A stretch of DNA of 64,000 bases, from the NCBI GenBank assembly GCA_031371345.1, contig JANMJM010000127.1:133-64132 (forward strand), read 5' to 3'. Shown here piece by piece: positions 8,253 through 33,535 of this stretch. Each line of letters opens with the position of its first letter. The stretch's first letter is position 1. Below the pieces are notes generated by a model that searched no databases, was not told the origin of the DNA, and saw nothing but the letters and a program-made list of their open reading frames with translations. The DNA is from Vicinamibacteria bacterium (GTDB lineage Bacteria > Acidobacteriota > Vicinamibacteria > Vicinamibacterales > JAMQPK01). A program made the position numbers and the translations under genes.

Positions 8253-8327
8253 TGGCTGGGGCGGGTGGATTCGAACCACCGAATACGGGATCCAAAGTCC
8301 CGCGCCTTACCGCTTGGCCACGCCCCA
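8253..8327 (-). tRNA. tRNA-Gln (anticodon UUG), CCA encoded
   Basis: The reverse complement reads TGGGGCGTGGCCAAGCGGTAAGGCGCGGGACTTTGGATCCCGTATTCGGTGGTTCGAATCCACCCGCCCCAGCCA. Features are a 7-bp acceptor stem (TGGGGCG/CGCCCCA), anticodon loop CTTTGGA, T-arm GGTGG-TTCGAAT-CCACC and a 3' CCA. Confidence 0.93.
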
Positions 8328-9404: not shown

Positions 9405-10161
9405 GTAACTGCTCCAGCGTAATCGGCTGCAGGCCCGTCGGGATTTTGATCGCGACGAGCTCGTCGCGCGGCAGATCGCCGTTCACTTCGAGCTGACTCA
9501 AGCCGACGGTCAAGTTCGCGTTCGCTGCAAGAATGATGATCTGCGACGGCTGCTCGCCGGCAAACCGCGGGTACTCGATCTCGAGCCCCCCGTATCGCCC
9601 GGCAACAAACCGCCAGCGGCCCGCCTGACGCTGAAGATACAGCGTACCGCTCGACTCGAGATCCACGCTCAGCCAGTCGGAACCGTACTCGCGCCCGCTC
9701 GTCGGCCGAGCATTGGCTTTCACGCATCCGCTCAGCACCGCGCGCAGGTCATCTGGACCGAGCCTGACGCCGATGAGCGCGTTCAGAATGTCTTCCGGCG
9801 CCGTATTCTGCAGAATGCGGCGATCGCGCGGCAGCAGCAGCGTGCCACGCGACCCGTCCGCCGTAAGAATGAACGCGGGACTTCCGAACGGCGCCACCGC
9901 CTCGAGCCGCATGCCTCCGGGTGCGAAGCCCGCGAGCACGCGGCCGCGTAGTTTCTGCGGCCCCGCATTGCCCGATAACGCGAGCTCAACCTGCAGTGAG
10001 CGCACGTCGCGGCAACCCGTCTGTGCGCTGTCGAAGGCCGCCACGTAGTCGGTCGAGGTGGTACCGGTGCCGGTCGGCAGTACAATCCGGCGCGCACCTG
10101 CGGGCGCACACGCAATACCCGCGATGGTCGCCAGCGCGATGAGCAGCAGCCGGTGATTTAT
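9373..10161 (-). CDS. Putative outer-membrane lipoprotein in the lolB slot (start uncertain; ORF-track start is GTG 10044)
   Basis: The frame stays open upstream of GTG 10044 and reads (I)NHRLLLIALATIAGIAC-APAG, i.e. a signal peptide plus a lipobox-like IAGIAC. It occupies the position between a TPR gene and ispE, which is the lolB position in gammaproteobacteria. No canonical start precedes the signal peptide. Confidence 0.5.
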   Translation of the reverse strand: MNHRLLLIALATIAGIACAPAGARRIVLPTGTGTTSTDYVAAFDSAQTGCRDVRSLQVELALSGNAGPQKLRGRVLAGFAPGGMRLEAVAPFGSPAFILTADGSRGTLLLPRDRRILQNTAPEDILNALIGVRLGPDDLRAVLSGCVKANARPTSGREYGSDWLSVDLESSGTLYLQRQAGRWRFVAGRYGGLEIEYPRFAGEQPSQIIILAANANLTVGLSQLEVNGDLPRDELVAIKIPTGLQPITLEQLREAGPLGSEK

Positions 10162-22112: not shown

Positions 22113-23552
22113 TTACAACAGCGCGGAGATCGATTTGATCGCCAGATCCATCAGGCGCGTCGGCAGGATGCCAAGATAGAAGATCGCAATCGTGGGGACG
22201 CCGAGCGCGAAGAGCGAGGCGGGCGACGGCTTCGTTACGGGCGACAGCGCAATGTCGTCCGACATGTACATCATCACCACGACCCGCAGATAGAAAAACA
22301 CGGAGACGACGCTCGTCAGCACGCCGATAATCGCGAGGCCGTAGTCGCCCGCCGTCACCGCCGCGCTGAAGAGATACCACTTGCCGATGAACCCGGCCGT
22401 CGGCGGAAAGCCGCCGAGAGACAGCAGGAAAATCGTCATCAGCAGCGCGAGCATCGGCTGCCGCTCGGAAAGGCCGGCATAGTCGGCGAGATCGTCGTTC
22501 TGTCGATCGCGCGTGGCGATGAGCGCGGTGACACCGAACGCCCCGACGCTCGTCAGCGCGTATGTGAGCAGATAGAACAACATCGCGCCCTTGCCGATGT
22601 CGTTGCCAGATGTCATCGCCATCAGCAGGTAGCCGGCGTGCGCGATGCTCGAGTAGGCAAGCATCCGCCGGACGTTGCGCTGGACGACGCCGGCCGTGAC
22701 GCCGAGAATCATCGACGCAGCCGACAACACCCACACGACCGGACCCCACTGGGGTTGAAAGCTGCCGAAGGCCGACATGAACACGCGCATGAACGCCGCG
22801 AACGCCGCGGCCTTCACGCCCGCCGACATGAACGCCGTGACGACGGCCGGAGCGCCCTGATACGCGTCGGGCGTCCACATGTGAAACGGCACGGCTGAGA
22901 CTTTGAACGCAAACCCCACGAGCAGCAGCCCGAGGGCGAGGTACGTGAGCACGTCCTGACCCGCCAGGCGGCCGGACATCACGACCACGATCTGATCCAG
23001 CCGCGTCGTCCCGGTCACGCCGAACGTGAACGCGACCCCGTAGAGGAAGAACGCGCTCGCGAACCCGCCGAGCAGAAAATATTTGAAGGCGGCCTCTGCG
23101 CCTTCTTTCGATTCGCGCCGGATGGCCGTCAGGATGTACACGGCAAGCGACAGGATTTCGAGCGCGATGAAAATCACCAGCAGATCGTTCGCCATCGCCA
23201 TCAGCATCATGCCGCCGAGGCCGAACAGCGTGAGCGCGTAATAGTCGCCGGCCGGAATGCCGTCGCGCTCGATCACCTGCGCTGAAAGCGCGATCGTGAG
23301 CACGCCGACGGTGGCGAGAATGAGCACGACGAAGAGGCCGAAGTTGTCTGCCGAAACGACGCCGTAGCTCTGCGCGCCTCTTCCCCACAACAACAGCGCG
23401 GACACGATCGACGCGGCGAGCCCGATGATGCCGAGTCCGCCGATCGGCATACGCTCGTCCGGCGAACGATATGCTTCCGCGAGCATCGCCGCGAGGCCGC
23501 CGAGCCAGACGCACACGATGGGAATGACGGCGGCAAAGCTTCGCATCATCAT
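22113..23552 (-). CDS. nuoN: NADH-quinone oxidoreductase subunit N
   Basis: The ORF runs 22113..23840. The membrane protein starts at the ATGATGATG run (23552), overlapping the nuoM TGA. It has a typical NuoN hydrophobic profile. Confidence 0.9.
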   Translation of the reverse strand: MMMRSFAAVIPIVCVWLGGLAAMLAEAYRSPDERMPIGGLGIIGLAASIVSALLLWGRGAQSYGVVSADNFGLFVVLILATVGVLTIALSAQVIERDGIPAGDYYALTLFGLGGMMLMAMANDLLVIFIALEILSLAVYILTAIRRESKEGAEAAFKYFLLGGFASAFFLYGVAFTFGVTGTTRLDQIVVVMSGRLAGQDVLTYLALGLLLVGFAFKVSAVPFHMWTPDAYQGAPAVVTAFMSAGVKAAAFAAFMRVFMSAFGSFQPQWGPVVWVLSAASMILGVTAGVVQRNVRRMLAYSSIAHAGYLLMAMTSGNDIGKGAMLFYLLTYALTSVGAFGVTALIATRDRQNDDLADYAGLSERQPMLALLMTIFLLSLGGFPPTAGFIGKWYLFSAAVTAGDYGLAIIGVLTSVVSVFFYLRVVVMMYMSDDIALSPVTKPSPASLFALGVPTIAIFYLGILPTRLMDLAIKSISALL

Positions 23553-25081
23553 CGGCCGAGATTCCTTACCTGCTGTCCCTGGGTACGATGAATCTGTTCG
23601 ACGAGGCGCGTCACGGCCGGCTCGATCGGTTTCAGAAACCACATGGGGGCGACGCCCATCACGATGCACATCGCCACCGCCGGCCAGAGCGTCCACCGCT
23701 CGCGCCGCGTCAGGTCTGGCAAGTGCGCGTTTTCCTCGTTCGTCACCGGACCGTAGTTCACACGCTGGAACATCCACAGCATGTAGACCGCCGACAGAAG
23801 CACACCAACCGCGGCGACGGCCGCATAGCGTGGATCCCATCGGAACGCGCCGACCAGAATCAGCAGTTCACCGACGAAGCCGTTCAGTCCAGGTAATCCA
23901 ATTGACGCGAGTGTGACGATCAAAAACGCCGTCGTCAGCTTCGGCAGCACCTTTTTCAAACCGCCGAACTCGGCAATCAACCGCGTGTGACGTCGATCCG
24001 ACAACATGCCGACGATGAGGAAGAGTGCCCCTGTGCTGACGCCATGATTCAGCATTTGATACACGGCGCCCTGCATACCCTGCACGTTCGTTGCAGAAAT
24101 CCCGAGCGCGACGAAGCCGAGATGGCTGACGCTCGAATAAGCAACGAGCTTTTTGAGATCCGGCTGAACCATGGCGACGAGCGCCCCGTAAATAATGCCG
24201 ATCACCGCCAGCCCGCCAAGATATGGAGCGAAATACAAGGCCGCATCGGGGAACAACGGGAAGGCAAAGCGGATCAGGCCGTACGTCCCCATCTTCAAGA
24301 GCACGCCCGCGAGAATGACCGAGCCGGCCGTCGGCGCCTGGACGTGCGCGTCGGGCAGCCAGGTGTGAAACGGAAATAGCGGAACTTTGATCGCAAACGC
24401 GATGGCAAACGCGAGGAAGCCCCAGAACTGCAGCCAGCCCGGAAGCGGCAACTGGTAGAGCTTCAGCAGATTGAAACTGGGCGTGCCTGTGACGGCGCCA
24501 TGGTAATAAGCCAGCGCCAGAATGGCGACCAGCATCAGCACGCTGCCCGCCATCGTATAAAGGATGAACTTGATCGCGGCGTAGACGCGGCGGTCGTACC
24601 CCCAGATGCCGATGAGGAAATACATCGGAATCAACATCGCGTCCCAGAAGATGTAAAACAGGAACAGATCGAGCGAGATGAACACGCCGATCATCGCGCT
24701 CTCGAGTGCGAGCACGACGAGCGCAAACCCCTTCACCCGCTGGTGGACCGATTCCCACGACGACAACAGCGCCAGCGGCGTCAGAAATCCGGTGAGCACG
24801 ACGAGAAACAGGCTGATGCCGTCGATGCCCACGAAATAATCGATGCCGAACGCGGGAATCCACGCGTGTCTCTCGACGAACTGGAAATCGGCAGATGGGG
24901 CGTCGAAGCGGGCCCACAGCAACAGGGTGAACGCGAACTCCACGACGGAGACACCAAGCGCCATCTGCCGGATGAGCTCTTCGCGACGACCGCTGGTGAA
25001 CGCGATGATCGCGAGGCCCGCGATGGGGACGAGCACGAGAAGACTCAGCAGCGGCAATTTATCTCCACAGGTAGTACCCAA
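23549..25081 (-). CDS. nuoM: NADH-quinone oxidoreductase subunit M
   Basis: 510-aa antiporter-like subunit (WLPDAHVQAPTAGSVILAGVLLKMGTYG). Confidence 0.93.
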   Translation of the reverse strand: MGTTCGDKLPLLSLLVLVPIAGLAIIAFTSGRREELIRQMALGVSVVEFAFTLLLWARFDAPSADFQFVERHAWIPAFGIDYFVGIDGISLFLVVLTGFLTPLALLSSWESVHQRVKGFALVVLALESAMIGVFISLDLFLFYIFWDAMLIPMYFLIGIWGYDRRVYAAIKFILYTMAGSVLMLVAILALAYYHGAVTGTPSFNLLKLYQLPLPGWLQFWGFLAFAIAFAIKVPLFPFHTWLPDAHVQAPTAGSVILAGVLLKMGTYGLIRFAFPLFPDAALYFAPYLGGLAVIGIIYGALVAMVQPDLKKLVAYSSVSHLGFVALGISATNVQGMQGAVYQMLNHGVSTGALFLIVGMLSDRRHTRLIAEFGGLKKVLPKLTTAFLIVTLASIGLPGLNGFVGELLILVGAFRWDPRYAAVAAVGVLLSAVYMLWMFQRVNYGPVTNEENAHLPDLTRRERWTLWPAVAMCIVMGVAPMWFLKPIEPAVTRLVEQIHRTQGQQVRNLGR

Positions 25082-26996
25082 CCATGAGCACGGCTCCTAA
25101 CAGGATGGACAGCGCGTAGGCCCGCACCGAACCGGTCTGTATGTGGCGCACGACCGCACCCGTCTCGGCGACGATCGTGGCGGTACCGTTGACGGCGCCG
25201 TCGATGACGGTGGCGTCGAGCCCTTTCCACAGCACGTTTTCGGACAGCGTCTTGATAGGCTGGACGAAGACTTCGTTATAGACCTCGTCGACATAACCTT
25301 TGTTGACGAGGAATCGATACACGCCTGGAAAGCCTGCCGCGAGTCGCTCGGGGATTTCTGGACGTTTCAAATAGAAGCGTGCGGCGATCGCGATGCCCGC
25401 AAGCGCAAGGATCGACGACACCACGATGAGGGTGATCTCGAGCGAGTGACTCGCCGCCGAAGCCGCCGCTTCCCCGCCGGCCGCGCCTTCGAACGCCGGC
25501 GGCATGAAGCTCGGTTCGAGGAAATGCTCGATCCAGTTGCTGCCACCCACCACCTCGGGCACGCCGACGTACCCTGCCAGAATCGAGCCGAGGGCGAGCA
25601 CGGCAAGCGGAATGGCCATCGCGCGCGGCGCATCGTGCAGATGCGTATCGTGGTGCGCCGCTGTGCGCCGAGTTCCGTGGAACGCGAGGAACACGAGACG
25701 GAACATGTAGACCGCCGTCATCAACGACGTGATCGCGCCAATCAACCAGAGCCACGTGTGGCCGCTCGCGAACGTGCGATAAAGAATTTCGTCTTTGCTG
25801 AAAAATCCCGCCAGACCTGGAACGCCGGCGATCGCGAGCGAGCCGATGAGGAACGTCCAGTACGTCATCGGCAACTCGCGCCGCAGTCCGCCCATATTTC
25901 GAAGGTCCTGCTCTCCGGCGAGCGCGTGAATGACCGCGCCGGCGCCAAGGAACAGCAGCGCCTTGAAGAACGCGTGGGTGAACAGGTGGAAGATGCCCGC
26001 GGCGTACGCGCCGACGCCCATGGCGAGGAACATGTACCCGAGTTGCGACACCGTGGAATAGGCAAGCACTCGCTTGATGTCGTTCTGCACGAGGCCGAAC
26101 GCACCGGCCCAGATGGCTGTTGCCGCGCCGATCACGGCGACGATGATGAGCACTTCCGGTGCGTGGCTGAACAGCACGGCGTTGCGGCCGATCAAATACA
26201 CGCCCGCCGTCACCATTGTCGCCGCGTGTATGAGCGCCGACACGGGCGTCGGCCCTTCCATCGCGTCCGGCAACCAGATATAGAGTGGAATCTGCGCCGA
26301 TTTTCCGGTTGCCCCAATGAACAACAGCAACGCCATCAACGACACGGTGCCGAATGACGCCTCGGGAGCGAGCGGTCCCAGCGCGGCGGCAATTCTCTGA
26401 AAGTCGAGCGTGCCGAATCTCACGAAGGCGAGCAGCACACCGAGGATGAACGCCACGTCTCCGATGCGATTGACGATGAAGGCCTTCTTGCCGGCATCGG
26501 CGGCCGACGGTTTCTGATACCAGAATCCAATGAGCAGATACGAGCACAGCCCCACGCCTTCCCATCCGACAAACAAGATCAGAAAGTTGGCGCCGAGCAC
26601 GAGCACGAGCATGAAAAACGCGAACAGGTTCAGATAGGAGAAATATCGCGCGTATTCCGACGCCGGCTCGTCGTGCATGTACGCGGTCGAATAGACGTGG
26701 ATGAGGAATCCGATGCCTGTGACGACCAGAATCATCAGCGCCGAGAGCGGATCGAGCCGCAGCGTCAGTGGAACTTGGAAGTCGCCCGATGCAATCCAGG
26801 TAAATACCGTCTGCATCAACTCACGGCTATCAGGCGCGCGTCCGATGAGCGCAACGACCTCGACCACCGACACACCGAACGCGGCCAGCATGGCCAGCGA
26901 TGCGACGGCGCCGGATATTTCCTTCGGCACGCGTTTGCCGGCGAACGTGTTGATCAGAAATCCGATCAGCGGGAGCAGCGGAATCCAGATGAGCAT
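25059..26996 (-). CDS. nuoL: NADH-quinone oxidoreductase subunit L
   Basis: 645 aa: WLPDAMEGPTPVSALIHAATMVTAGVY, plus the long C-terminal lateral-helix region. Confidence 0.94.
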   Translation of the reverse strand: MLIWIPLLPLIGFLINTFAGKRVPKEISGAVASLAMLAAFGVSVVEVVALIGRAPDSRELMQTVFTWIASGDFQVPLTLRLDPLSALMILVVTGIGFLIHVYSTAYMHDEPASEYARYFSYLNLFAFFMLVLVLGANFLILFVGWEGVGLCSYLLIGFWYQKPSAADAGKKAFIVNRIGDVAFILGVLLAFVRFGTLDFQRIAAALGPLAPEASFGTVSLMALLLFIGATGKSAQIPLYIWLPDAMEGPTPVSALIHAATMVTAGVYLIGRNAVLFSHAPEVLIIVAVIGAATAIWAGAFGLVQNDIKRVLAYSTVSQLGYMFLAMGVGAYAAGIFHLFTHAFFKALLFLGAGAVIHALAGEQDLRNMGGLRRELPMTYWTFLIGSLAIAGVPGLAGFFSKDEILYRTFASGHTWLWLIGAITSLMTAVYMFRLVFLAFHGTRRTAAHHDTHLHDAPRAMAIPLAVLALGSILAGYVGVPEVVGGSNWIEHFLEPSFMPPAFEGAAGGEAAASAASHSLEITLIVVSSILALAGIAIAARFYLKRPEIPERLAAGFPGVYRFLVNKGYVDEVYNEVFVQPIKTLSENVLWKGLDATVIDGAVNGTATIVAETGAVVRHIQTGSVRAYALSILLGAVLMVGYYLWR

Positions 26997-27003
26997 AGGT
27001 CCG

Positions 27004-27306
27004 CTACCCTTTCAACTGCCGGAACGCGTCGGGGTTGAGGGTTTCCATATGGCGGAACAGCGTAATCACCAGCGCGAGGCCCACTGCGGCCTCGGCGGCC
27101 GCCACCGTCACCACAAAAAAGACGATGATCTGCCCGTCGGCAGAGCCGAGGAAATGGCCGAAGGCGATGAAGGTCAGGTTCACGGCGTTCAGCATCACCT
27201 CGATCGACAGCAGGATGGTGATGAGGTTGCGTCGCAGAAACACGCCGGCGATGCCGATCGTGAACAGAACGCCGGAGAGAATCAGATAATGATTCAGCCC
27301 CGCCAT
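27004..27306 (-). CDS. nuoK: NADH-quinone oxidoreductase subunit K
   Basis: 100 aa starting at internal ATG 27306: [44 protein letters not shown]. Confidence 0.92.
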
Positions 27307-27848
27307 GGTTTCTTCTCTGGCAAATGCCGTCCGGCCAGCGCGATGGAGCCGATCATGGCGATCAGAATCAGGACCGACGTCGCTTCGAACGCAAACGCGT
27401 AGTTGGTGAAGAGAATTTTTCCAATTTCGGCAACCGACCAGGCCGTTTCGCGCTCCCCCGTGGCCGGCGCTGCGGCAATGCCTCTCGATCGATTCAGCGC
27501 CCACGCCAGCTCGAGCGCCATCGCGACGGCGAGCAGTGCGCCGAACCATCGTGCGGTCGCCGTACCGCCATCGGACGCCGCTTCCGCCTCGGCGACGGCG
27601 CCTTCCCGCGCGACGTTCAGCAGCATGACGACAAAGAGGAATAACACCATGATGGCGCCTGCATACACGATGATCTGCGTCACCGCGACGAACGGCGCGT
27701 CGAGCATCACGTAAAGTCCGGCGAGTGCCACGAACGAGCAGATCAACAGAAGGACGCTGTAGATGGGATTCGGCTGCGCGATCACGAGCAGCGTAGACAC
27801 GACCGCCATCGCCGCGAACGCGTAGAAGAAGATCAAGTTATGCGCCAA
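27294..27848 (-). CDS. nuoJ: NADH-quinone oxidoreductase subunit J
   Basis: 184 aa: [35 protein letters not shown]. Its start overlaps the nuoH stop by 11 nt. Confidence 0.9.
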
Positions 27849-28869
27849 AGTACAGCACCCCCGCGGCCGTGACGAGCAGGTTGATCACCGAGAGCGGCAG
27901 CAGCACTTTCCAGCCGAACCGCATCAGCTGGTCGTAGCGATATCGCGGCAGCGTCCACCGCATCCACACGTAGAAGAACAAAATCGCGCTCACCTTCAGC
28001 AGGAACCAGATCCAGCCGAGCGACTCCGGCAGAAACGGCCCATGCCATCCGCCCAGAAATAAATCGGTCGCAACCGCCGACACCGTGACCATGTTGATGT
28101 ACTCGGCCATGAAGAACAGCGCGAAGCTCATGCTGCTGTATTCGGTGTGATACCCGGCCACGAGTTCCTGTTCGGCCTCTGGAAAATCGAATGGGGCGCG
28201 GTTGGTCTCGGCGACCCCGGCGGTCATGTAGATGAAAAAGCTGACCGGTTGAATGAAGACGTACCACTTTGGAATGAAGCCGAGCCAGGCGCCCCCCTGC
28301 GCGTTCACGATGTCGCGAAGCGACATGGAACCCGCCAGCACCAGCACACTCGCGAGCGCCATGCCGTAGGAGAGCTCGTAGCTGATCATCTGCGCCGACG
28401 ATCGCAGCGCGCCGAGCAGCGAATACTTGCTGTTCGAGCTCCATCCGGCGAGCACGATGCCGTAGACGCTCATCGATGTGACCGCGAACACGAACAGCAC
28501 CGCCACGTTGACGTCGGCAACCTGAAGAGGAATCGGTGCCGGCAGGAGGCCCCAGAACGTCGTCTCGGCGCCGAATGGCACAACCGCGAACGCGGTGAAG
28601 GCCGCCGTCGCCGAAATGATGGGTGCAAGCGTGAAGAGAATCTTGTCTGCTGCCTTCGGGCGCAGATCCTCTTTCATCATCAGCTTGATGATGTCGGCCA
28701 GCGGCTGGAGCATGCCGTACGGGCCGACGAGGTACGGCCCCATGCGCTGCTGGATCCTTGCCGCCACCTTCCGCTCGACGTAGACCATGATCGCGGCCGA
28801 GTTCAGCAGCATGAAGAAGACAAAGCCCAGAATGCCGAGCTGGGCGATGAGGGTGGCGGAAGGTATCAC
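27838..28869 (-). CDS. nuoH: NADH-quinone oxidoreductase subunit H
   Basis: 343 aa: VERKVAARIQQRMGPYLVGPYGMLQPLADIIKLMMKEDL. Confidence 0.94.
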   Translation of the reverse strand: MIPSATLIAQLGILGFVFFMLLNSAAIMVYVERKVAARIQQRMGPYLVGPYGMLQPLADIIKLMMKEDLRPKAADKILFTLAPIISATAAFTAFAVVPFGAETTFWGLLPAPIPLQVADVNVAVLFVFAVTSMSVYGIVLAGWSSNSKYSLLGALRSSAQMISYELSYGMALASVLVLAGSMSLRDIVNAQGGAWLGFIPKWYVFIQPVSFFIYMTAGVAETNRAPFDFPEAEQELVAGYHTEYSSMSFALFFMAEYINMVTVSAVATDLFLGGWHGPFLPESLGWIWFLLKVSAILFFYVWMRWTLPRYRYDQLMRFGWKVLLPLSVINLLVTAAGVLYFGA

Positions 28870-28951
28870 GTCAGTATTGCCGTCTCGACGCAGAGAAACA
28901 AAACTCTGCGGCTCCGCGTCTTTGCGTCAAAGGCTAAGGAATGCATTTTGA

Positions 28952-30253
28952 TTAGTGCGAGTGCGCCGGGGCCGCCGAGCGGCGGCGCCACGGCGCGGGC
29001 AGCGGGCAGCGCCCCCCGCGAATGTGTGCTTCGTACTCACCCCTGAAATTTTTCAGCGTCGTCAATGCGGGCGTCGCCGCCGCATCGCCAAAGGCGCACA
29101 AGGTTTTGCCCGCAATGAGGCCCGCCACATTTTCGAGCAGCGCCAGATCCTTCATCTCGCCGTCGCCGCGCTCGATTTTTTCCAAAATGTTCAGCAGCCA
29201 TTGAGTGCCTTCACGGCACGGGGTGCATTTACCGCACGACTCGTGACGGTAAAACCTCAGCAGGTTCTCCGCCAGCCAGACCATGCACGTCGTCTCGTCG
29301 AGAACGATGATGCCGGCCGAACCGAGCAGCGATCCCGCCTTCGCCACGCCGTCGAAGCTGGCCTGGATGTCGAGCTGATCGGGAAGAAGAATGGGCACAG
29401 ACGATCCGCCTGGTATGACCGCTTTCAGCGCGCGACCGTCACGCACGCCGCCGGCAATATCAAAAATCAACTCGCGCAGCGTCGTGCTCATCGGCGCTTC
29501 GTAGACGCCGGGCTTCGTGACGTGGCCGCTGACGCAATAGAGTTTCGGGCCGCCGTTTTTTTCCGGCCCGAGCGCCGCGTACCACTCGGCGCCGCGAAGC
29601 AGAATCGACGGCACGTTGCAGAGTGTCTCGACGTTGTTCACCGCAGTCGGGGCTCCATAGAGACCCGCGATGGCGGGAAACGGCGGCTTCAACCGAGGCT
29701 GCGCGCGCTTGCCCTCGAGCGACTCGAGCAGCGCCGTCTCTTCGCCCGCTTCGTACGCGCCGGCGCCGCGATGGATGAAGATGTCGCAATCCCAGCCAAG
29801 GCCCATGGCGTTCTTGCCGACGTAGCCCTTCTTGTACGCCTCTTCGAGCTGCTGCTCGAGCACCTGCTGCACGTGCAGAAACTCGCCGCGTATATAGATG
29901 TAGGCGACCTTCGCGCCGATGGCGTGGCACGCGATGAGGCACCCCTCGAACAGCAAATGCGGGTTGCGCTCCATCAATAAATGATCTTTAAAGGTCCCGG
30001 GCTCGCTTTCGTCGGCGTTGCAAACGATGTACTTCGGTTTCGGTGAGTCCTTGACGACAAACTGCCACTTCATCCCGGCGGGGAATCCGGCGCCGCCGCG
30101 CCCTTTCAGCCCCGAAGCCTTCACGAGCTCGATGACGTCGTTCGGCTTCATTCCCAGCGCTTTACGCAAACCCTCGTATCCCTCGTGCTTGAGATAGAAG
30201 TCGAGCGTGTAACAGTGGGACTCGCGAACGTATTTCGTAAGGATGGCTTCCAC
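28952..30253 (-). CDS. nuoF: NADH-quinone oxidoreductase subunit F
   Basis: 433 aa. It has GLKGRGGAGFPAGMKWQF (FMN/NADH site) and the 4Fe-4S motif SCGKCTPCREG. Confidence 0.95.
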   Translation of the reverse strand: MEAILTKYVRESHCYTLDFYLKHEGYEGLRKALGMKPNDVIELVKASGLKGRGGAGFPAGMKWQFVVKDSPKPKYIVCNADESEPGTFKDHLLMERNPHLLFEGCLIACHAIGAKVAYIYIRGEFLHVQQVLEQQLEEAYKKGYVGKNAMGLGWDCDIFIHRGAGAYEAGEETALLESLEGKRAQPRLKPPFPAIAGLYGAPTAVNNVETLCNVPSILLRGAEWYAALGPEKNGGPKLYCVSGHVTKPGVYEAPMSTTLRELIFDIAGGVRDGRALKAVIPGGSSVPILLPDQLDIQASFDGVAKAGSLLGSAGIIVLDETTCMVWLAENLLRFYRHESCGKCTPCREGTQWLLNILEKIERGDGEMKDLALLENVAGLIAGKTLCAFGDAAATPALTTLKNFRGEYEAHIRGGRCPLPAPWRRRSAAPAHSH

Positions 30254-30262
30254 GTTTTCGCC

Positions 30263-30868
30263 CTAAGCCCTGTCGGGGATCTGATGGTGGCAGCCGGTCA
30301 GTGCGCCCTCGCCGCGAGCGCGGAGATCGTCGGCGAGCTTCCTGGCGTCTTCTGGTTGCAGGCACTCGTGCCAACTGTCGTTCACCATCACCAAGGGCGC
30401 GCGATCGCAGGCGCCCAGACATTCGACTTCCATCAATGTGAAGGTTCCGGTTGAATCCGTTTCGTTGGGCTCGATGCCCAGAACCGACATCAATTCTTCC
30501 GTCACGCGCTCGGCGCCGCGCAGCGCGCACGGAAGCGTTCGGCACACCTGCACCACATATTTTCCGACCGGCCGCGTGTAAAACATGGTGTAGAACGACA
30601 CGACGTCTTCGACGTCCGCCGCGGTGCAGCCAATGACGGTCGCCACATGCTGCACGGAGCTCAGCGAGATGTAGCCGATCTGCCGCTGCACCAGGAACAG
30701 CGCGGGCAGAATCGCCGACTTCCGGCCTTCGAGCGGATAGCGTGTCGCGATCTGCTCGAGACGCGCGCGATTCTCCGGCTCGTAGGCAAACACCTTCCCA
30801 TCATCGAACGGCATTTTGCGCGTCGAGCGATGGAACTCGCGGTAGTCGATCTTTGGGTGAAAGGTCAT
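30263..30868 (-). CDS. nuoE: NADH-quinone oxidoreductase subunit E
   Basis: 201 aa. It has the 2Fe-2S cysteines (VCRTLPCALRG ... VECLGACDRAP). Confidence 0.92.
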   Translation of the reverse strand: MTFHPKIDYREFHRSTRKMPFDDGKVFAYEPENRARLEQIATRYPLEGRKSAILPALFLVQRQIGYISLSSVQHVATVIGCTAADVEDVVSFYTMFYTRPVGKYVVQVCRTLPCALRGAERVTEELMSVLGIEPNETDSTGTFTLMEVECLGACDRAPLVMVNDSWHECLQPEDARKLADDLRARGEGALTGCHHQIPDRA

Positions 30869-30886
30869 ATCAACTTTTGAAGTTTT

Positions 30887-30975
30887 GAACTGGTGAACTG
30901 GTGAACTGGTGAACTGGTGAACTGGTGAACTGGAAACTCCAGATCACCAGTTCACCAGATCGCCAGTTCACCAGA
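30887..30975 (-). repeat. Tandem (GAACTGGT)x5 microsatellite forming a long hairpin between nuoD and nuoE
   Basis: Five perfect 8-mers lie at 30887-30926, with one variant copy. The complementary arm is agatcaccagttcaccagatcgccagttcaccagat. It uses the same word family as 18343..18425. Confidence 0.85.
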
Positions 30976-30980
30976 TTTCC

Positions 30981-32162
30981 TCATCTGTCCACATCCCCCA
31001 TCACCACGTCGATGGATCCGATGACGGCAATCACGTCGGCGATCAACCCGCCGACGATCATCCGCGGCAACGCCTGACACGCGAGCAACGAGGGCGACCG
31101 CGCTTTCAGGCGCCAGGGACGATTCGTGCCGTCGGCCACGACATAGAACCCGTGCTCGCCGCGCGCGCCTTCGACCGGCACGTAGGCTTCGCCGACAGGA
31201 ACCGTGAACCCCTGCGAGTAAATCAAGAAATGCTGAATCAGCGCTTCCATCTCCGTGTAGACGCGATCCTTCGGCGGCGGTACCACCGTCGGCGCGTCGG
31301 CGGCAAAGACGCCGGCCGGGGTGATGCGCGACAGGGCCTGGCGGCAGATCGTGACGCTCTGCCGCATTTCCTCGATGCGCACGAGATAGCGGTCGTACAC
31401 GTCGCCGTCGGTCCCGACCGGCACATCGAAGTCGAACGTATCGTAGCCGCTGTACGGGAAGATCTTGCGGACGTCGTAGTTCCAGCCGGAGGCGCGTCCA
31501 ATCGGCCCCGCCAGGCTGAGCCCGATGCACTCGTCCTTCGACAGCTTGCCCACGCCGCGCGTGCGCTTCACGTAAATTTCGTTCCTGGTCAGCAGACCTT
31601 CGTACTCGTTCAGCTTTGTGGGAAACGTGTCGAGAAACTGCGTGACGGCTTCGTGGAATCCGCGCGGCAGATCGTCGCGAAGGCCGCCCACGCGAATGTA
31701 GCTCGGGAACATGCGGAAGCCGGCGATGCGCTCGTTGATGTCGAGCAGCAGCTCGCGCTCGCGGAAGCAGTACAGCATCACCGAAATCGCGCCCACTTCC
31801 ATGGCGTGCGTGCCCAGCCACACCAAGTGACTGTTGATGCGTTGCAGCTCCGCGAGAAGCACGCGAATCCACTTCACACGATCCGGCATCTCGAGGCCGA
31901 GGAGCCTCTCCACCGACAGCGAGTACGCGAAGGAATTCGACTGAGCGCTCAGGTAATCCATGCGCTCGACGAGGGGAATCACCTGTTGGAATTTTTTTTG
32001 CTCGGCGGTCTTTTCGATGCCGGTGTGCAGATAGCCAATGGTCGGCGACGCCGAGACGACGGTCTCGCCATCGAGCTCGAGCACCAGACGCAGCACGCCG
32101 TGCGTGCTGGGGTGCTGCGGCCCCATGTTAATCGTCATCGTCTCGGTGCGGATTTCCGGCAT
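30981..32162 (-). CDS. nuoD: NADH-quinone oxidoreductase subunit D
   Basis: 393 aa: MTINMGPQHPSTHGVLRLVLELDGE, with a C-terminal ...DVVMGDVDR. Confidence 0.95.
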   Translation of the reverse strand: MPEIRTETMTINMGPQHPSTHGVLRLVLELDGETVVSASPTIGYLHTGIEKTAEQKKFQQVIPLVERMDYLSAQSNSFAYSLSVERLLGLEMPDRVKWIRVLLAELQRINSHLVWLGTHAMEVGAISVMLYCFRERELLLDINERIAGFRMFPSYIRVGGLRDDLPRGFHEAVTQFLDTFPTKLNEYEGLLTRNEIYVKRTRGVGKLSKDECIGLSLAGPIGRASGWNYDVRKIFPYSGYDTFDFDVPVGTDGDVYDRYLVRIEEMRQSVTICRQALSRITPAGVFAADAPTVVPPPKDRVYTEMEALIQHFLIYSQGFTVPVGEAYVPVEGARGEHGFYVVADGTNRPWRLKARSPSLLACQALPRMIVGGLIADVIAVIGSIDVVMGDVDR

Positions 32163-32169
32163 GACCGTC

Positions 32170-32718
32170 TTAGCGACCCGTCCCGGGATTGGCGGCGCGC
32201 GCCGCCCTGTCCTTGGCGAGATTGGCGCGGAACTCTTCTTCGCTCACCTGCAGCGGCTCGGACGACCGGGGCCTCAATCTGATTTGAACGGGGAAATCTT
32301 TGCGCAGCGGATGGCCTTGCCAGTCCTCGGGCATCAGCAGGCGGCGGAGATCGCCGTGATTGTCGAACTCGATGCCAAACATGTCCCACACTTCGCGCTC
32401 GAGCCATCCGGCGGCCGGCCACACACTCTGCACCGTCGGCAGACGCGCCGCCGAGCCTGGTACTGCCACTTTCAATCGAAGGCGCGCCGCAGGAGAGGCG
32501 AGCAGATACACCACTTCGAAGCGAGGCTCGCGCGGCCAGAAATCCACCGCGGTGAGGTCGGCGAGAAAGTTGAAGCCGAGCTCGGGACGATCGCGCAGCA
32601 GCCGGCACACGTCGATCAGCCGATCGGTCTGCACGAACAGCGTTTCCTGCCCGTCGGCGGTCACGATCGGATCGATGACGAGACCCGGCAGCAGGGTCCG
32701 CAGCGCGTCGACGATCAT
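32170..32718 (-). CDS. nuoC: NADH-quinone oxidoreductase subunit C
   Basis: The ORF runs 32170..32898. NuoC sequence starts at ATG 32718 ([12 protein letters not shown]...[25 protein letters not shown]), overlapping the nuoB TGA. Confidence 0.9.
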
Positions 32719-33179
32719 GCGCGCTGGCCCGCGATCTTTTTCTGCAGCTGGACGATGCCGTAGATGAGCGATTCTGGCCGGGGCGGGCAGCCGGGAACGT
32801 AGACATCGACCGGCACGATCTGATCGACGCCCTGCACGAGCGCGTAATTGTCGAACACGCCGCCGATCTACGCGCAGGCGCCCATCGAGATCACCCACTT
32901 CGGCTCCGGCATCTGATCGTAGACGCGGCGCAGCGCGGGCGCCATTTTTCTGGAGAGGCGGCCGGCCACGATCATCAGATCGGACTGGCGCGGCGATCCG
33001 CGGAACACCTCGGCGCCAAAGCGCGCGATGTCGTAGCGCGCGCAGCTCATCGCCATCATTTCAATGGCGCAGCACGCGAGGCCAAAGGTCACGGGCCAGA
33101 TCGACGAGCGGCGGGCCCACTGCACCATCTTCTCGACGCTCGTCGTCAGCACCGGGAGTTCGAGATCGTGATCCGTCAC
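32715..33179 (-). pseudogene. nuoB: NADH-quinone oxidoreductase subunit B interrupted by an in-frame TAG (32868..32870)
   Basis: GTG 33179 overlaps the nuoA TGA. The frame reads ...[15 protein letters not shown]...[59 protein letters not shown], ending at TGA 32715. Conserved NuoB sequence therefore continues in the same frame after the stop. Confidence 0.85.
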
Positions 33180-33535
33180 TGATGACTCCAATCGAGCGCG
33201 CCTTTCTTCCAGACGTAGATATAGCCGGCCGTCAGCACCAGCGTGAACAAGAGGACCTGTAGATAACCCGACCATCCGAGCGCGCGCAGCGCGAGCGCCC
33301 AGGGATAGAGGAACGTGATCTCGATATCGAACAGCAGGAAAATCATCGCGATGAGATAGAACCGGATCGACTGCCGCTCGCGCGCGTCGCCGACCGGCGG
33401 CATGCCGCACTCGTAGGGCGCCATTTTTTCAGGCGTCGGATTGTGGGGTCCGAGAATTCTGGAGAGGAACACGGAGACACCGCCGAATCCGGCGGCCAGC
33501 ATCATCAACAGAAGGATCAGTAGCCAGTCCAGCAT
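33176..33535 (-). CDS. nuoA: NADH-quinone oxidoreductase subunit A
   Basis: 119 aa: ...[42 protein letters not shown]. Confidence 0.93.

What the first reader, a model, noticed from the sequence alone, without database searches (positions are those of the whole stretch)
22113..33535. nuo cluster with clean absence of nuoG and nuoI (nuoABCDEF-HJKLMN)
Twelve complex I genes are present in canonical order. nuoF (ending at 28952) is followed after only 82 nt by nuoH (starting at 28869), and the nuoJ start overlaps the nuoH stop by 11 nt. There is therefore no room for nuoG or nuoI, and no remnant of either.

Established knowledge: NuoG carries Fe-S clusters N1b, N4 and N5, and NuoI carries N6a and N6b. 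Together they form the only known electron path from NuoF (FMN, N3) to N2 in NuoB. Known reduced versions lack NuoEFG together, not G plus I while keeping E and F.

The tidy junctions argue for an evolved arrangement rather than a fresh deletion. G and I must either be supplied in trans, or this cluster is a non-standard or decaying paralogue. The nuoB amber codon reported separately bears on this.
Basis: partly seen in the sequence, partly recalled or inferred. Interest (0 to 1): 0.6.

Follow-up and report, generated by a model that had tools for sequence, protein, structure and literature searches.

The report
Split complex I gene cluster, Vicinamibacterales
This is the main block of respiratory complex I genes of a soil Acidobacterium (order Vicinamibacterales); nuoG and nuoI really are missing from it, but the layout is an old, conserved split of the gene set (related genomes carry nuoI as a lone gene elsewhere), so it is most likely ordinary.

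Summary
Twelve nuo genes (A, B, C, D, E, F, H, J, K, L, M, N) lie on the minus strand. There are 82 nt between nuoF and nuoH, and nuoH and nuoJ overlap by 11 nt. No trace of nuoG or nuoI exists anywhere in the 64 kb.

This is not a fresh deletion, an artefact or a decaying paralogue:
- The same ABCDEF-HJKLMN order occurs in all 16 related loci recovered, which are uncultured Vicinamibacterales with NuoH 70-83% identical.
- All 12 genes are under purifying selection (dN/dS 0.09-0.43).
- All Fe-S and FMN motifs in NuoB, NuoE and NuoF are intact.

nuoI is encoded in trans in this order. A family of stand-alone nuoI genes was found in 12 contigs. It passes the NCBIfam NuoI cut-offs and sits next to a divergent LytS/LytTR pair. 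Its composition matches Vicinamibacterales, and one copy is labelled Vicinamibacterales by NCBI.

nuoG could not be located with the capped tools, so its presence in trans is inferred, not shown.

Dispersed nuo genes are already documented, including nuoB and nuoI outside the operon in other Acidobacteria.

The nuoB amber codon is a single TCG to TAG change in the most conserved gene. It is a recent mutation or a sequencing error.

Interest is low.

The parts
33176..33535 (-). nuoA
   Evidence: PF00507, E = 7e-38. It is 59-72% identical to the first gene of the cluster in L001-L012.
32715..33179 (-). nuoB, with a GTG start that overlaps the nuoA stop. It is interrupted by an in-frame TAG at 32868-32870.
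   Evidence: PF01058 matches both halves. The reading frame continues through the TAG into '[32 protein letters not shown]'. The N2 ligand motifs CCAIEM, GACA and PGCPP are present.
32868..32870 (-). In-frame amber codon in nuoB.
   Evidence: The position is Ser in all 11 clade relatives. The codon is TCG in 9 of them, so the change is a single C to A substitution. TAG is an ordinary stop for 10 of 36 window genes, including nuoE and nuoK.
32170..32718 (-). nuoC, with an ATG start that overlaps the nuoB stop.
   Evidence: PF00329, E = 2e-45.
30981..32162 (-). nuoD
   Evidence: PF00346, E = 4e-108. It is 72-80% identical in relatives.
30263..30868 (-). nuoE
   Evidence: PF01257, E = 5e-47. TIGR01958 scores 160.9 against a cut-off of 142.4. 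The CxxxxC...CxxxC N1a motif is present.
28952..30253 (-). nuoF
   Evidence: PF01512, PF10589 and SLBB domains. The TIGR01959 equivalog scores 612.6 against a cut-off of 558.65. The N3 motif CGKCTPCREG is present. The FMN-site motif is the clade variant GAGAYEAGEE.
28870..28951 (-). nuoF-nuoH spacer of 82 nt, where nuoG would normally lie.
   Evidence: Read directly. No promoter-like or terminator-like site lies within the spacer; the one terminator-like match of the scan is inside nuoH at 28824-28841 and is no more than shuffles give. The same junction measures -11 to 187 nt in 12 relatives.
27838..28869 (-). nuoH
   Evidence: PF00146, E = 1e-127. It is 70-83% identical in L001-L014.
27294..27848 (-). 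nuoJ, which overlaps the nuoH stop by 11 nt, where nuoI would normally lie.
   Evidence: PF00499, E = 1e-39. The same -11 overlap is seen in L002, L005, L008, L009, L011 and L012.
27004..27306 (-). nuoK
   Evidence: PF00420, E = 8e-29.
25059..26996 (-). nuoL
   Evidence: A 645-aa ORF. It is 58-75% identical to the gene after nuoK in relatives. In the relative L081 the orthologous gene carries PF00662 and PF00361.
23549..25081 (-). nuoM (start codon uncertain)
   Evidence: A 510-aa ORF. It is 68-74% identical in relatives.
22113..23546 (-). nuoN (start codon uncertain)
   Evidence: An ORF read from MRSFAAV onwards. It is 55-64% identical in relatives.

Best explanation
The window holds the main block of a split gene set for an ordinary NADH-oxidising, 14-subunit respiratory complex I in a member of the Vicinamibacterales (Acidobacteriota). 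Twelve subunit genes, nuoABCDEF-HJKLMN, form one tightly packed and probably co-transcribed cluster.

The two missing subunits are the ones that wire NuoF to NuoB: NuoG (clusters N1b, N4, N5) and NuoI (N6a, N6b). They are encoded elsewhere on the chromosome and join the complex after translation.

**Shown.**
- The arrangement is ancestral to the clade and is maintained by selection.
- Genomes of this order carry a stand-alone, canonical nuoI at a conserved locus beside a divergent LytS/LytTR two-component pair.

**Inferred.**
- The genome of this particular window has that nuoI.
- A stand-alone nuoG exists.
- The products assemble into a standard complex.

The TAG in nuoB is a one-base change, either a very recent mutation or a sequencing error. 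It is not a sign of long-term decay.
For: 1. **Conserved order.** ABCDEF-HJKLMN occurs in L001-L014, in each to the end of the contig (14 species-level genomes, NuoH 70-83% identical). It also occurs in L081 and L082, which have independent gene calls and Pfam annotation. The F-H gap is -11 to 187 nt and the H-J gap is -11 to 157 nt.
2. **Purifying selection.** Against three relatives, dN/dS is 0.09-0.43 for all 12 genes at dS 0.6-1.5. nuoB is the lowest at 0.09-0.13.
3. **Intact cofactor motifs.** The N2, N1a and N3 ligand motifs and the NADH/FMN motifs are present. NuoF and NuoE pass the NCBIfam cut-offs. An N-module and an N2 centre kept under selection make sense only if the G and I chain exists.
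4. **Stand-alone nuoI family.** It was found in 12 contigs: L093, L105, L109, L111, L116, L130, L132, L187 and L206-L209.
   - Members are 77-90% identical to one another and at most 62% identical to any other NuoI.
   - The family has both CxxCxxCxxxCP motifs.
   - It passes NuoI models NF004537 (163.6 against 163) and TIGR01971 (145.6 against 113).
   - Tetranucleotide distance to a Vicinamibacterales reference was computed for six of these contigs. It is 0.013-0.021, inside the within-reference range of 0.009-0.023.
   - Member P0574 is NCBI HEY3042959.1, 'NuoI [Vicinamibacterales bacterium]', on GCA_036506695.1.
   - A LytS/LytTR pair flanks the gene in 10 of the 12 contigs.
   - None of the contigs has nuoH, nuoJ or nuoG nearby, and none of the 16 clade nuo clusters has nuoI.
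5. **Precedent.**
   - PMC3144371 states that dispersed complex I clusters are common.
   - Acidobacterial nuoACDHJKLMN operons lack nuoB and nuoI, while nuoI is still reported in the genomes (10.1101/197269).
   - Terriglobia loci fetched here show that same arrangement.
   - nuoB-nuoI pairs appear on separate metagenome contigs L096 and L165.
Against: - nuoG was not found for this order. Five candidate NuoG representatives were looked up, and all sit in the canonical F-G-H position in other lineages. Source names for 20 representatives gave no Vicinamibacterales entry.
- The link between the nuoI family and the clade holds at order level only. It rests on an NCBI label and on composition. 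No single assembly was shown to carry both loci, and the source genome of the window could not be examined because exact look-ups of its proteins found nothing.
- If the TAG in nuoB is real, this particular strain would make a truncated NuoB that lacks the fourth N2 ligand.
Confidence: 0.85

Rival explanations
1. The complex is non-standard. Vicinamibacterales have no canonical NuoG. NuoE and NuoF either dock through a different adaptor (for example a HoxU-like or formate-dehydrogenase-type Fe-S subunit) or work apart from the membrane complex. NuoI, supplied in trans, would then receive electrons from another donor.
For: No NuoG attributable to the order was found, despite a search of 1.84 billion representatives and five context look-ups. 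The clade's NuoF carries a lineage-specific change in the FMN-site motif: GAGAYEAGEE instead of GAGAYICGEE, in 120 of 120 homologues.
Against: - Only the best 120 or 150 hits are shown, there is no search by taxon, and 50% clustering can hide the protein under a Terriglobia representative.
- NuoE and NuoF pass the NuoE and NuoF NCBIfam cut-offs and are under purifying selection inside the cluster.
- The YE[VC]GEE variant also occurs in Terriglobia, which keep nuoG between F and H. The motif is therefore not tied to loss of G.
- nuoI looked equally 'missing' and turned out to be an ordinary gene in trans.
Confidence: 0.07
2. The cluster is a decaying or non-functional paralogue. The amber codon in nuoB would be the first visible lesion, and another complete nuo operon would do the work.
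For: There is an in-frame TAG in nuoB, and TAG is a genuine stop in this genome.
Against: - There is only one lesion in about 11.4 kb. It is a single-base change from the TCG codon that 9 of 11 relatives have.
- dN/dS is 0.09-0.43 for all genes, and lowest for nuoB.
- The arrangement is intact in 16 related loci.
- None of those assemblies appears a second time among the 80 best NuoH matches.
- The trans nuoI is a lone gene, not part of a second operon.
Confidence: 0.04
3. The absence is an assembly artefact or a recent deletion that removed nuoG and nuoI from a canonical 14-gene operon in this genome only.
For: None beyond the absence itself.
Against: The same two junctions are present in independently assembled genomes from soil, groundwater, lake and bioreactor samples. 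The shared 11-nt H/J overlap recurs among them.
Confidence: 0.01

Closest known systems
Acidobacterial (Terriglobia, subdivisions 1 and 3) nuoACDHJKLMN and nuoACDEFGHJKLMN operons with nuoB and nuoI encoded elsewhere (Hausmann et al., bioRxiv 10.1101/197269)
   Same: - Same phylum, and the same principle: Fe-S subunit genes of the electron-transfer chain lie outside an otherwise canonical, ordered nuo cluster.
- nuoH is directly followed by nuoJ (loci L015, L018, L024, L029 and L036).
- The NuoF FMN-site motif shares the unusual Glu, as YE[VCA]GEE.
   Different: - In Terriglobia the genes outside the cluster are B and I, and G stays between F and H. Here B is inside the cluster and G and I are outside.
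- The trans nuoI here is a lone gene beside a LytS/LytTR pair. B-I pairs occur on other contigs (L096, L165).
Canonical 14-gene nuo/nqo operon (E. coli nuoA-N, Thermus thermophilus nqo1-14)
   Same: The gene order and the identity of the 12 genes present are the same. All cofactor motifs of B, E and F are present.
   Different: nuoG and nuoI are not in the operon.
[quoted passage not shown] From my own knowledge, Rhodothermus marinus has nqo8 and nqo9 outside its two nqo operons, and Aquifex aeolicus has scattered nuo genes.
   Same: A functional complex I is encoded at several loci, and individual subunit genes (including nuoI/nqo9) stand alone.
   Different: Different subunits are displaced. 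The Rhodothermus and Aquifex cases were not re-examined here.
11-subunit complex I-like enzymes that lack the N-module (nuoEFG absent)
   Same: They too have an incomplete set of nuo genes in the cluster.
   Different: Those clusters always keep nuoI and lack E, F and G together. This cluster keeps E and F and lacks I, so it is not of that kind.

Membership tests
NADH:quinone oxidoreductase, 14-subunit complex I (Nuo/Nqo) | Membrane-arm subunits A, H, J, K, L, M and N are present. | tested here: met
   Pfam hits for A, H, J and K. L, M and N are identified by ORF size and by orthology to the Pfam-annotated genes of L081.
NADH:quinone oxidoreductase, 14-subunit complex I (Nuo/Nqo) | Q-module subunits B, C and D are present, with the N2 ligands and the quinone-site His. 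| tested here: met
   Pfam hits. The motifs CCAIEM, GACA and PGCPP in NuoB and HPSTHGV in NuoD were read directly. Caveat: nuoB has an in-frame TAG.
NADH:quinone oxidoreductase, 14-subunit complex I (Nuo/Nqo) | N-module subunits E and F are present, with the N1a, N3, FMN and NADH motifs. | tested here: met
   The TIGR01959 and TIGR01958 cut-offs are passed. The motifs were read. The FMN motif is the clade variant YEAGEE.
NADH:quinone oxidoreductase, 14-subunit complex I (Nuo/Nqo) | NuoI (N6a and N6b) is encoded in the genome. | tested here: inconclusive
   It is absent from the window. A stand-alone canonical nuoI is present in Vicinamibacterales contigs. The window's own genome could not be searched.
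NADH:quinone oxidoreductase, 14-subunit complex I (Nuo/Nqo) | NuoG (N1b, N4 and N5) is encoded in the genome. | not testable with these tools
   It is absent from the window and from all clade loci. No search by taxon or by whole genome was available. Candidates found through the representative search belong to other lineages.
11-subunit complex I-like enzyme (no N-module) | nuoE, nuoF and nuoG are all absent while nuoI is retained in the cluster. | tested here: not met
   nuoE and nuoF are present and conserved, and nuoI is absent from the cluster.
Pseudogenised (decaying) operon | Several disabling lesions and relaxed selection (dN/dS approaching 1). | tested here: not met
   There is one single-base nonsense change only. 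dN/dS is 0.09-0.43.

The most novel reading that the evidence does not exclude
Vicinamibacterales, one of the most abundant soil bacterial orders, may build an NADH-oxidising complex I without a canonical NuoG. NuoEF would then be connected to a trans-encoded NuoI by a different or highly divergent Fe-S adaptor.
Probability: 0.06. Interest if true: 0.75.

Novelty: new member of a known kind. Interest (0 to 1): 0.2.

Why it matters
The main value is practical. Annotation pipelines and pathway-completeness scores that look only at the nuo cluster will call complex I 'incomplete' (12 of 14 subunits) in a whole, very abundant soil order, although the enzyme is almost certainly complete.

The work also documents a lineage-specific pattern within the Acidobacteriota:
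- Vicinamibacterales place G and I outside the cluster.
- Terriglobia place B and I outside.
- Pyrinomonadaceae place I only outside.

In each case it is the Fe-S 'wire' subunits that are displaced. The lone nuoI also sits beside a LytS/LytTR sensor pair, which hints that assembly of the electron wire could be regulated separately from the rest of the complex.

If nuoG were truly absent from complete genomes, the finding would become important. That is unlikely.

Tried and rejected
1. **Exact look-up of the window's NuoF and NuoD.** Neither is on record, so the source genome could not be inspected.
2. **Protein search with a Pyrinomonadaceae NuoG**. Only the best 120 hits are listed and all are close Pyrinomonadaceae relatives. 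It was of no use for the clade.
3. **Search of 1.84 billion representatives with that NuoG**. Candidates were then ranked by three criteria:
   - similarity to known lineages;
   - a mirror-tree correlation with NuoE and NuoF distances;
   - amino-acid composition and the FCYY and CGMC signatures.
4. **Context look-ups of the best candidates.** P0243, P0396, P0259, P0359 and P0260 all sit in canonical F-G-H positions in other lineages. Source names for 20 representatives gave Planctomycetota, Chloroflexota, Dormibacteria, Acidimicrobiales and one unspecific 'Acidobacteriota', but no Vicinamibacterales.
5. **Literature.** No paper mentions Vicinamibacter together with nuoG. The supplement of the Hausmann preprint is not held. 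The 2025 HMM survey of complex I (PMC12361115) gives no cluster-level detail for Acidobacteriota.
6. **Search for a shared contig.** I looked for a contig length common to the NuoF and NuoI hit lists, which would have placed both genes on one contig. None coincided within the best 120 hits of each list.
7. **Recoding of TAG** was considered and rejected, because TAG ends 10 of 36 genes in the window.
8. **A regulatory element in the 82-nt F-H spacer** was considered. It holds only a 7-bp hairpin without a T-run, no promoter-like or terminator-like site lies in it, and the spacer length is not conserved.
Full report
**What is in the window**

On the minus strand between 22113 and 33535 lie, in order, nuoA, nuoB, nuoC, nuoD, nuoE, nuoF, nuoH, nuoJ, nuoK, nuoL, nuoM and nuoN.
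- Pfam confirms A, B (as two halves), C, D, E, F, H, J and K.
- L, M and N are the three large antiporter-like ORFs that follow.
- NuoF and NuoE pass NCBI's curated cut-offs.
- The genes are tightly packed, with GTGA and ATGA start/stop overlaps at A/B and B/C.

There are 82 nt between the nuoF stop (28952) and the nuoH start (28869). The nuoJ start (27848) overlaps the nuoH end (27838) by 11 nt.

**Absence of nuoG and nuoI**

Four independent checks find no trace of either gene in the 64 kb:
- No CxxCxxCxxxC[P] motif occurs in any reading frame.
- There are no tblastn hits with NuoG and NuoI from six other lineages.
- Profile HMMs built from 50 NuoG and 41 NuoI sequences give no hit better than E = 0.3.
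- The other large ORFs are unrelated housekeeping genes: DnaB, RadA, PurH, MurJ, PhoD, a PQQ dehydrogenase, a secretin and a TPR protein.

**Is it an accident of this genome?**

No. A scan of one genome per species with NuoH returned 14 loci with 70-83% identity, all uncultured Acidobacteriota. Every one shows the same order, ABCDEF-HJKLMN, as far as its contig reaches. None contains nuoG or nuoI within 10 kb on either side.

Two further relatives, with independent gene calls and Pfam annotation, show the same arrangement (L081 and L082).
- Across relatives the F-H junction measures -11 to 187 nt and the H-J junction -11 to 157 nt.
- The 11-nt H/J overlap of the window recurs in L002, L005, L008, L009, L011 and L012.
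- NCBI names attached to close NuoF homologues place the clade in the order Vicinamibacterales, the former subdivision 6.

**Is it decaying?**

No.
- Nei-Gojobori estimates between the window and three relatives give dN/dS of 0.09-0.43 for all twelve genes, at near-saturated synonymous divergence (dS 0.6-1.5). nuoB is the most constrained, at 0.09-0.13.
- The cluster N2 motifs of NuoB, the N1a motif of NuoE, and the N3, FMN and NADH motifs of NuoF are all present.
- The single lesion is the TAG at 32868-32870 in nuoB. That position is Ser in all 11 clade relatives, and the codon is TCG in nine of them, so TAG is one C to A step away.
- TAG terminates 10 of 36 genes in the window, including nuoE and nuoK, so recoding is not an explanation.

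The TAG is therefore either a very recent nonsense allele or a base-calling error. It does not support the decaying-paralogue reading.

**Where are the missing genes? nuoI**

A scan of JGI metagenome contigs used a GC-rich DNA pattern for the second ferredoxin motif of NuoI and returned 120 loci. Many carry nuoI without nuoH or nuoJ beside it.

Eight of them form one tight family (L093, L105, L109, L111, L116, L130, L132, L187).
- Members are 77-90% identical to one another and at most 62% identical to any other NuoI in hand.
- Tetranucleotide composition was compared with a Vicinamibacterales reference for six of these contigs. The distance is 0.013-0.021, inside the within-reference range of 0.009-0.023, and it is far from the Terriglobia and Actinomycetota references.
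- The protein is a full-length NuoI of about 150 aa with both CxxCxxCxxxCP motifs.
- It passes NCBIfam NF004537 (163.6 against 163) and TIGR01971 (145.6 against 113).

A protein search with this family returned 120 close homologues.
- Four of them were looked up on contigs of 12 kb to 940 kb. All show the same neighbourhood.
- A LytS-type histidine kinase and a LytTR response regulator are transcribed divergently from nuoI. A homocysteine S-methyltransferase/MTHFR gene follows downstream, directly or after one small ORF, in three of the four and in L109.
- There is no other nuo gene within 10 kb.
- The kinase/regulator pair is next to nuoI in 10 of the 12 loci. The other two are cut short.
- One member (P0574, NCBI HEY3042959.1, on GCA_036506695.1) is named 'NADH-quinone oxidoreductase subunit I [Vicinamibacterales bacterium]'.

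The pattern is reciprocal. No clade nuo cluster has nuoI, and no member of this nuoI family has nuo neighbours. This is what a split gene set predicts.

The limitation is that the link holds at the level of the order. No single assembly was shown to carry both loci, and the window's own genome could not be searched.

**Where are the missing genes? nuoG**

nuoG was not found.
- The word-indexed protein search lists only the best 120 hits, and with a Pyrinomonadaceae NuoG query these were all close relatives of the query.
- The search of 50%-identity representatives gave 150 candidates.
- The five most promising were chosen by similarity, by mirror-tree correlation and by sequence signatures. 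All turned out to lie in the canonical F-G-H position in other lineages.
- Source names for 20 representatives included no Vicinamibacterales entry.

Because the clade's NuoF shares the unusual YE[A/V/C]GEE motif with Terriglobia, its NuoG may be at least 50% identical to a Terriglobia-type representative. In that case it would be hidden inside that representative's cluster.

The presence of nuoG in trans is therefore an inference. It rests on three points:
- NuoE and NuoF are under purifying selection, and in known structures they dock on NuoG.
- Established knowledge of the Thermus and E. coli structures places N3 too far from N6a for electron transfer without N1b, N4 and N5.
- nuoI looked equally 'missing' and turned out to be present in trans.

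**Context in other lineages**

Among the 66 non-clade loci fetched with NuoH, 19 have nuoH directly followed by nuoJ:
- Terriglobia and a KSB1 genome: A-CDEFGH-JKLMN, lacking B and I.
- Pyrinomonadaceae and two others: ABCDEFGH-JKLMN, lacking I.
- A Latescibacterota chromosome: A-CDEF-HJKLMN, lacking B, G and I.
- Two loci reduced to AEHJKL and AEFHJK.

Several Ignavibacteria and Bacteroidota loci carry only G-H-I. The metagenome sample also contains nuoB-nuoI pairs on their own (L096 and L165), which matches the Terriglobia clusters that lack exactly those two genes.

The literature already records this.
- Moparthi and Hägerhäll note 'many examples' of prokaryotes with two or three dispersed complex I gene clusters (PMC3144371).
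- Hausmann et al. describe nuoACDHJKLMN operons in peatland Acidobacteria and treat the absence of nuoI from one MAG as incompleteness (10.1101/197269).
- From my own knowledge, not re-checked here, Rhodothermus marinus encodes nqo8 and nqo9 apart from its two nqo operons, and Aquifex aeolicus has scattered nuo genes.

**How it most likely works**

- The twelve genes are probably expressed as one unit. The packing is tight, no promoter-like or terminator-like site lies in the F-H spacer, and in several relatives F and H abut or overlap.
- NuoI is made from its own locus, possibly under separate control by the adjacent two-component system. NuoG is presumably made from a third locus.
- The subunits would assemble into a standard L-shaped complex with the chain FMN-N3-N1b-N4-N5-N6a-N6b-N2.
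- The first two points are partly shown. Assembly and activity are inferred.

**Verdict**

The finding is real and its 'evolved arrangement' reading is right. It is a lineage-specific split of an ordinary complex I gene set, a kind of organisation already known in this phylum and elsewhere. The exact pattern (G and I outside the cluster, and a lone nuoI beside LytS/LytTR) appears not to have been described, which makes it a new member of a known kind.

Interest is low, at about 0.2. A small residual chance, about 6%, remains that canonical NuoG is truly absent from the order, which would be remarkable. One HMM search of a complete Vicinamibacterales genome would settle this.

Noticed in passing
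window 32868-32870 (minus strand, inside nuoB): There is an in-frame TAG in the GACA-S-xGG motif of NuoB. Relatives have Ser there (TCG in 9 of 11), so it is a single C to A change. TAG is a normal stop elsewhere in the window. It is either a recent nonsense allele or a sequencing error.
   Followed up: yes
window about 29710-29740 (NuoF residues 'GAGAYEAGEE'); all clade loci L001-L013 and P0121-P0240: The FMN-site motif of NuoF is GAGAYEAGEE instead of the canonical GAGAYICGEE, in 120 of 120 close homologues and 13 of 13 clade loci. Terriglobia have YE[V/C]GEE. The Ile-Cys pair next to the flavin is replaced by Glu-Ala. The functional meaning is unknown.
   Followed up: partly
L109 5887-8527; L206-L209 around position 10000; L105, L111, L116, L132, L187: The stand-alone nuoI of Vicinamibacterales is transcribed divergently from a LytS-type histidine kinase and LytTR response regulator pair in 10 of 12 loci. 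A bifunctional homocysteine S-methyltransferase/MTHFR gene lies downstream where the contigs reach (L109, L206, L208, L209). This may mean separate regulation of the Fe-S 'wire' subunit.
   Followed up: partly
L081 7349-7948, L082 7319-7918; gaps between nuoC and nuoD in L003, L006-L008, L010 and L011: Several relatives have a SIS-domain (sugar isomerase-type) gene of about 200 aa inserted between nuoC and nuoD. The window does not have it.
   Followed up: no
L015, L018, L024, L029, L036, L084 (Terriglobia-type loci); L096 and L165: Terriglobia-type clusters lack nuoB and nuoI (A-CDEFGH-JKLMN), and nuoB-nuoI pairs occur on separate metagenome contigs. In Acidobacteriota it is the Fe-S chain subunits (B, G, I) that get displaced, in class-specific combinations.
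   Followed up: partly
P0136 (625 aa) and P0217 (633 aa): Two close relatives have a predicted protein that combines the NuoE (PF01257) and NuoF domains. It is either a NuoE-F fusion or a merged gene call on long contigs.
   Followed up: no
L081 18453-19805: In one relative a selA gene (selenocysteine synthase) lies immediately downstream of nuoN, on the opposite strand. No equivalent was identified next to nuoN in the window.
   Followed up: no
L126 (JGI contig Ga0118677_10017453): This contig has an unusual nuo order, H-I-E-F-G-J-K-L, at 66% G+C. It is another rearranged complex I cluster from an unidentified lineage.
   Followed up: no
window 28889-28910 (minus strand, nuoF-nuoH spacer): There is a 7-bp hairpin (CGCAGAG, 8-nt loop, CTCTGCG) without a T-run. 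The spacer's length is not conserved in relatives, so the hairpin is probably of no significance.
   Followed up: partly
window 8253-8327 (minus strand): tRNA-Gln (anticodon TTG) is the only RNA gene detected in the window by Rfam and ARAGORN.
   Followed up: yes
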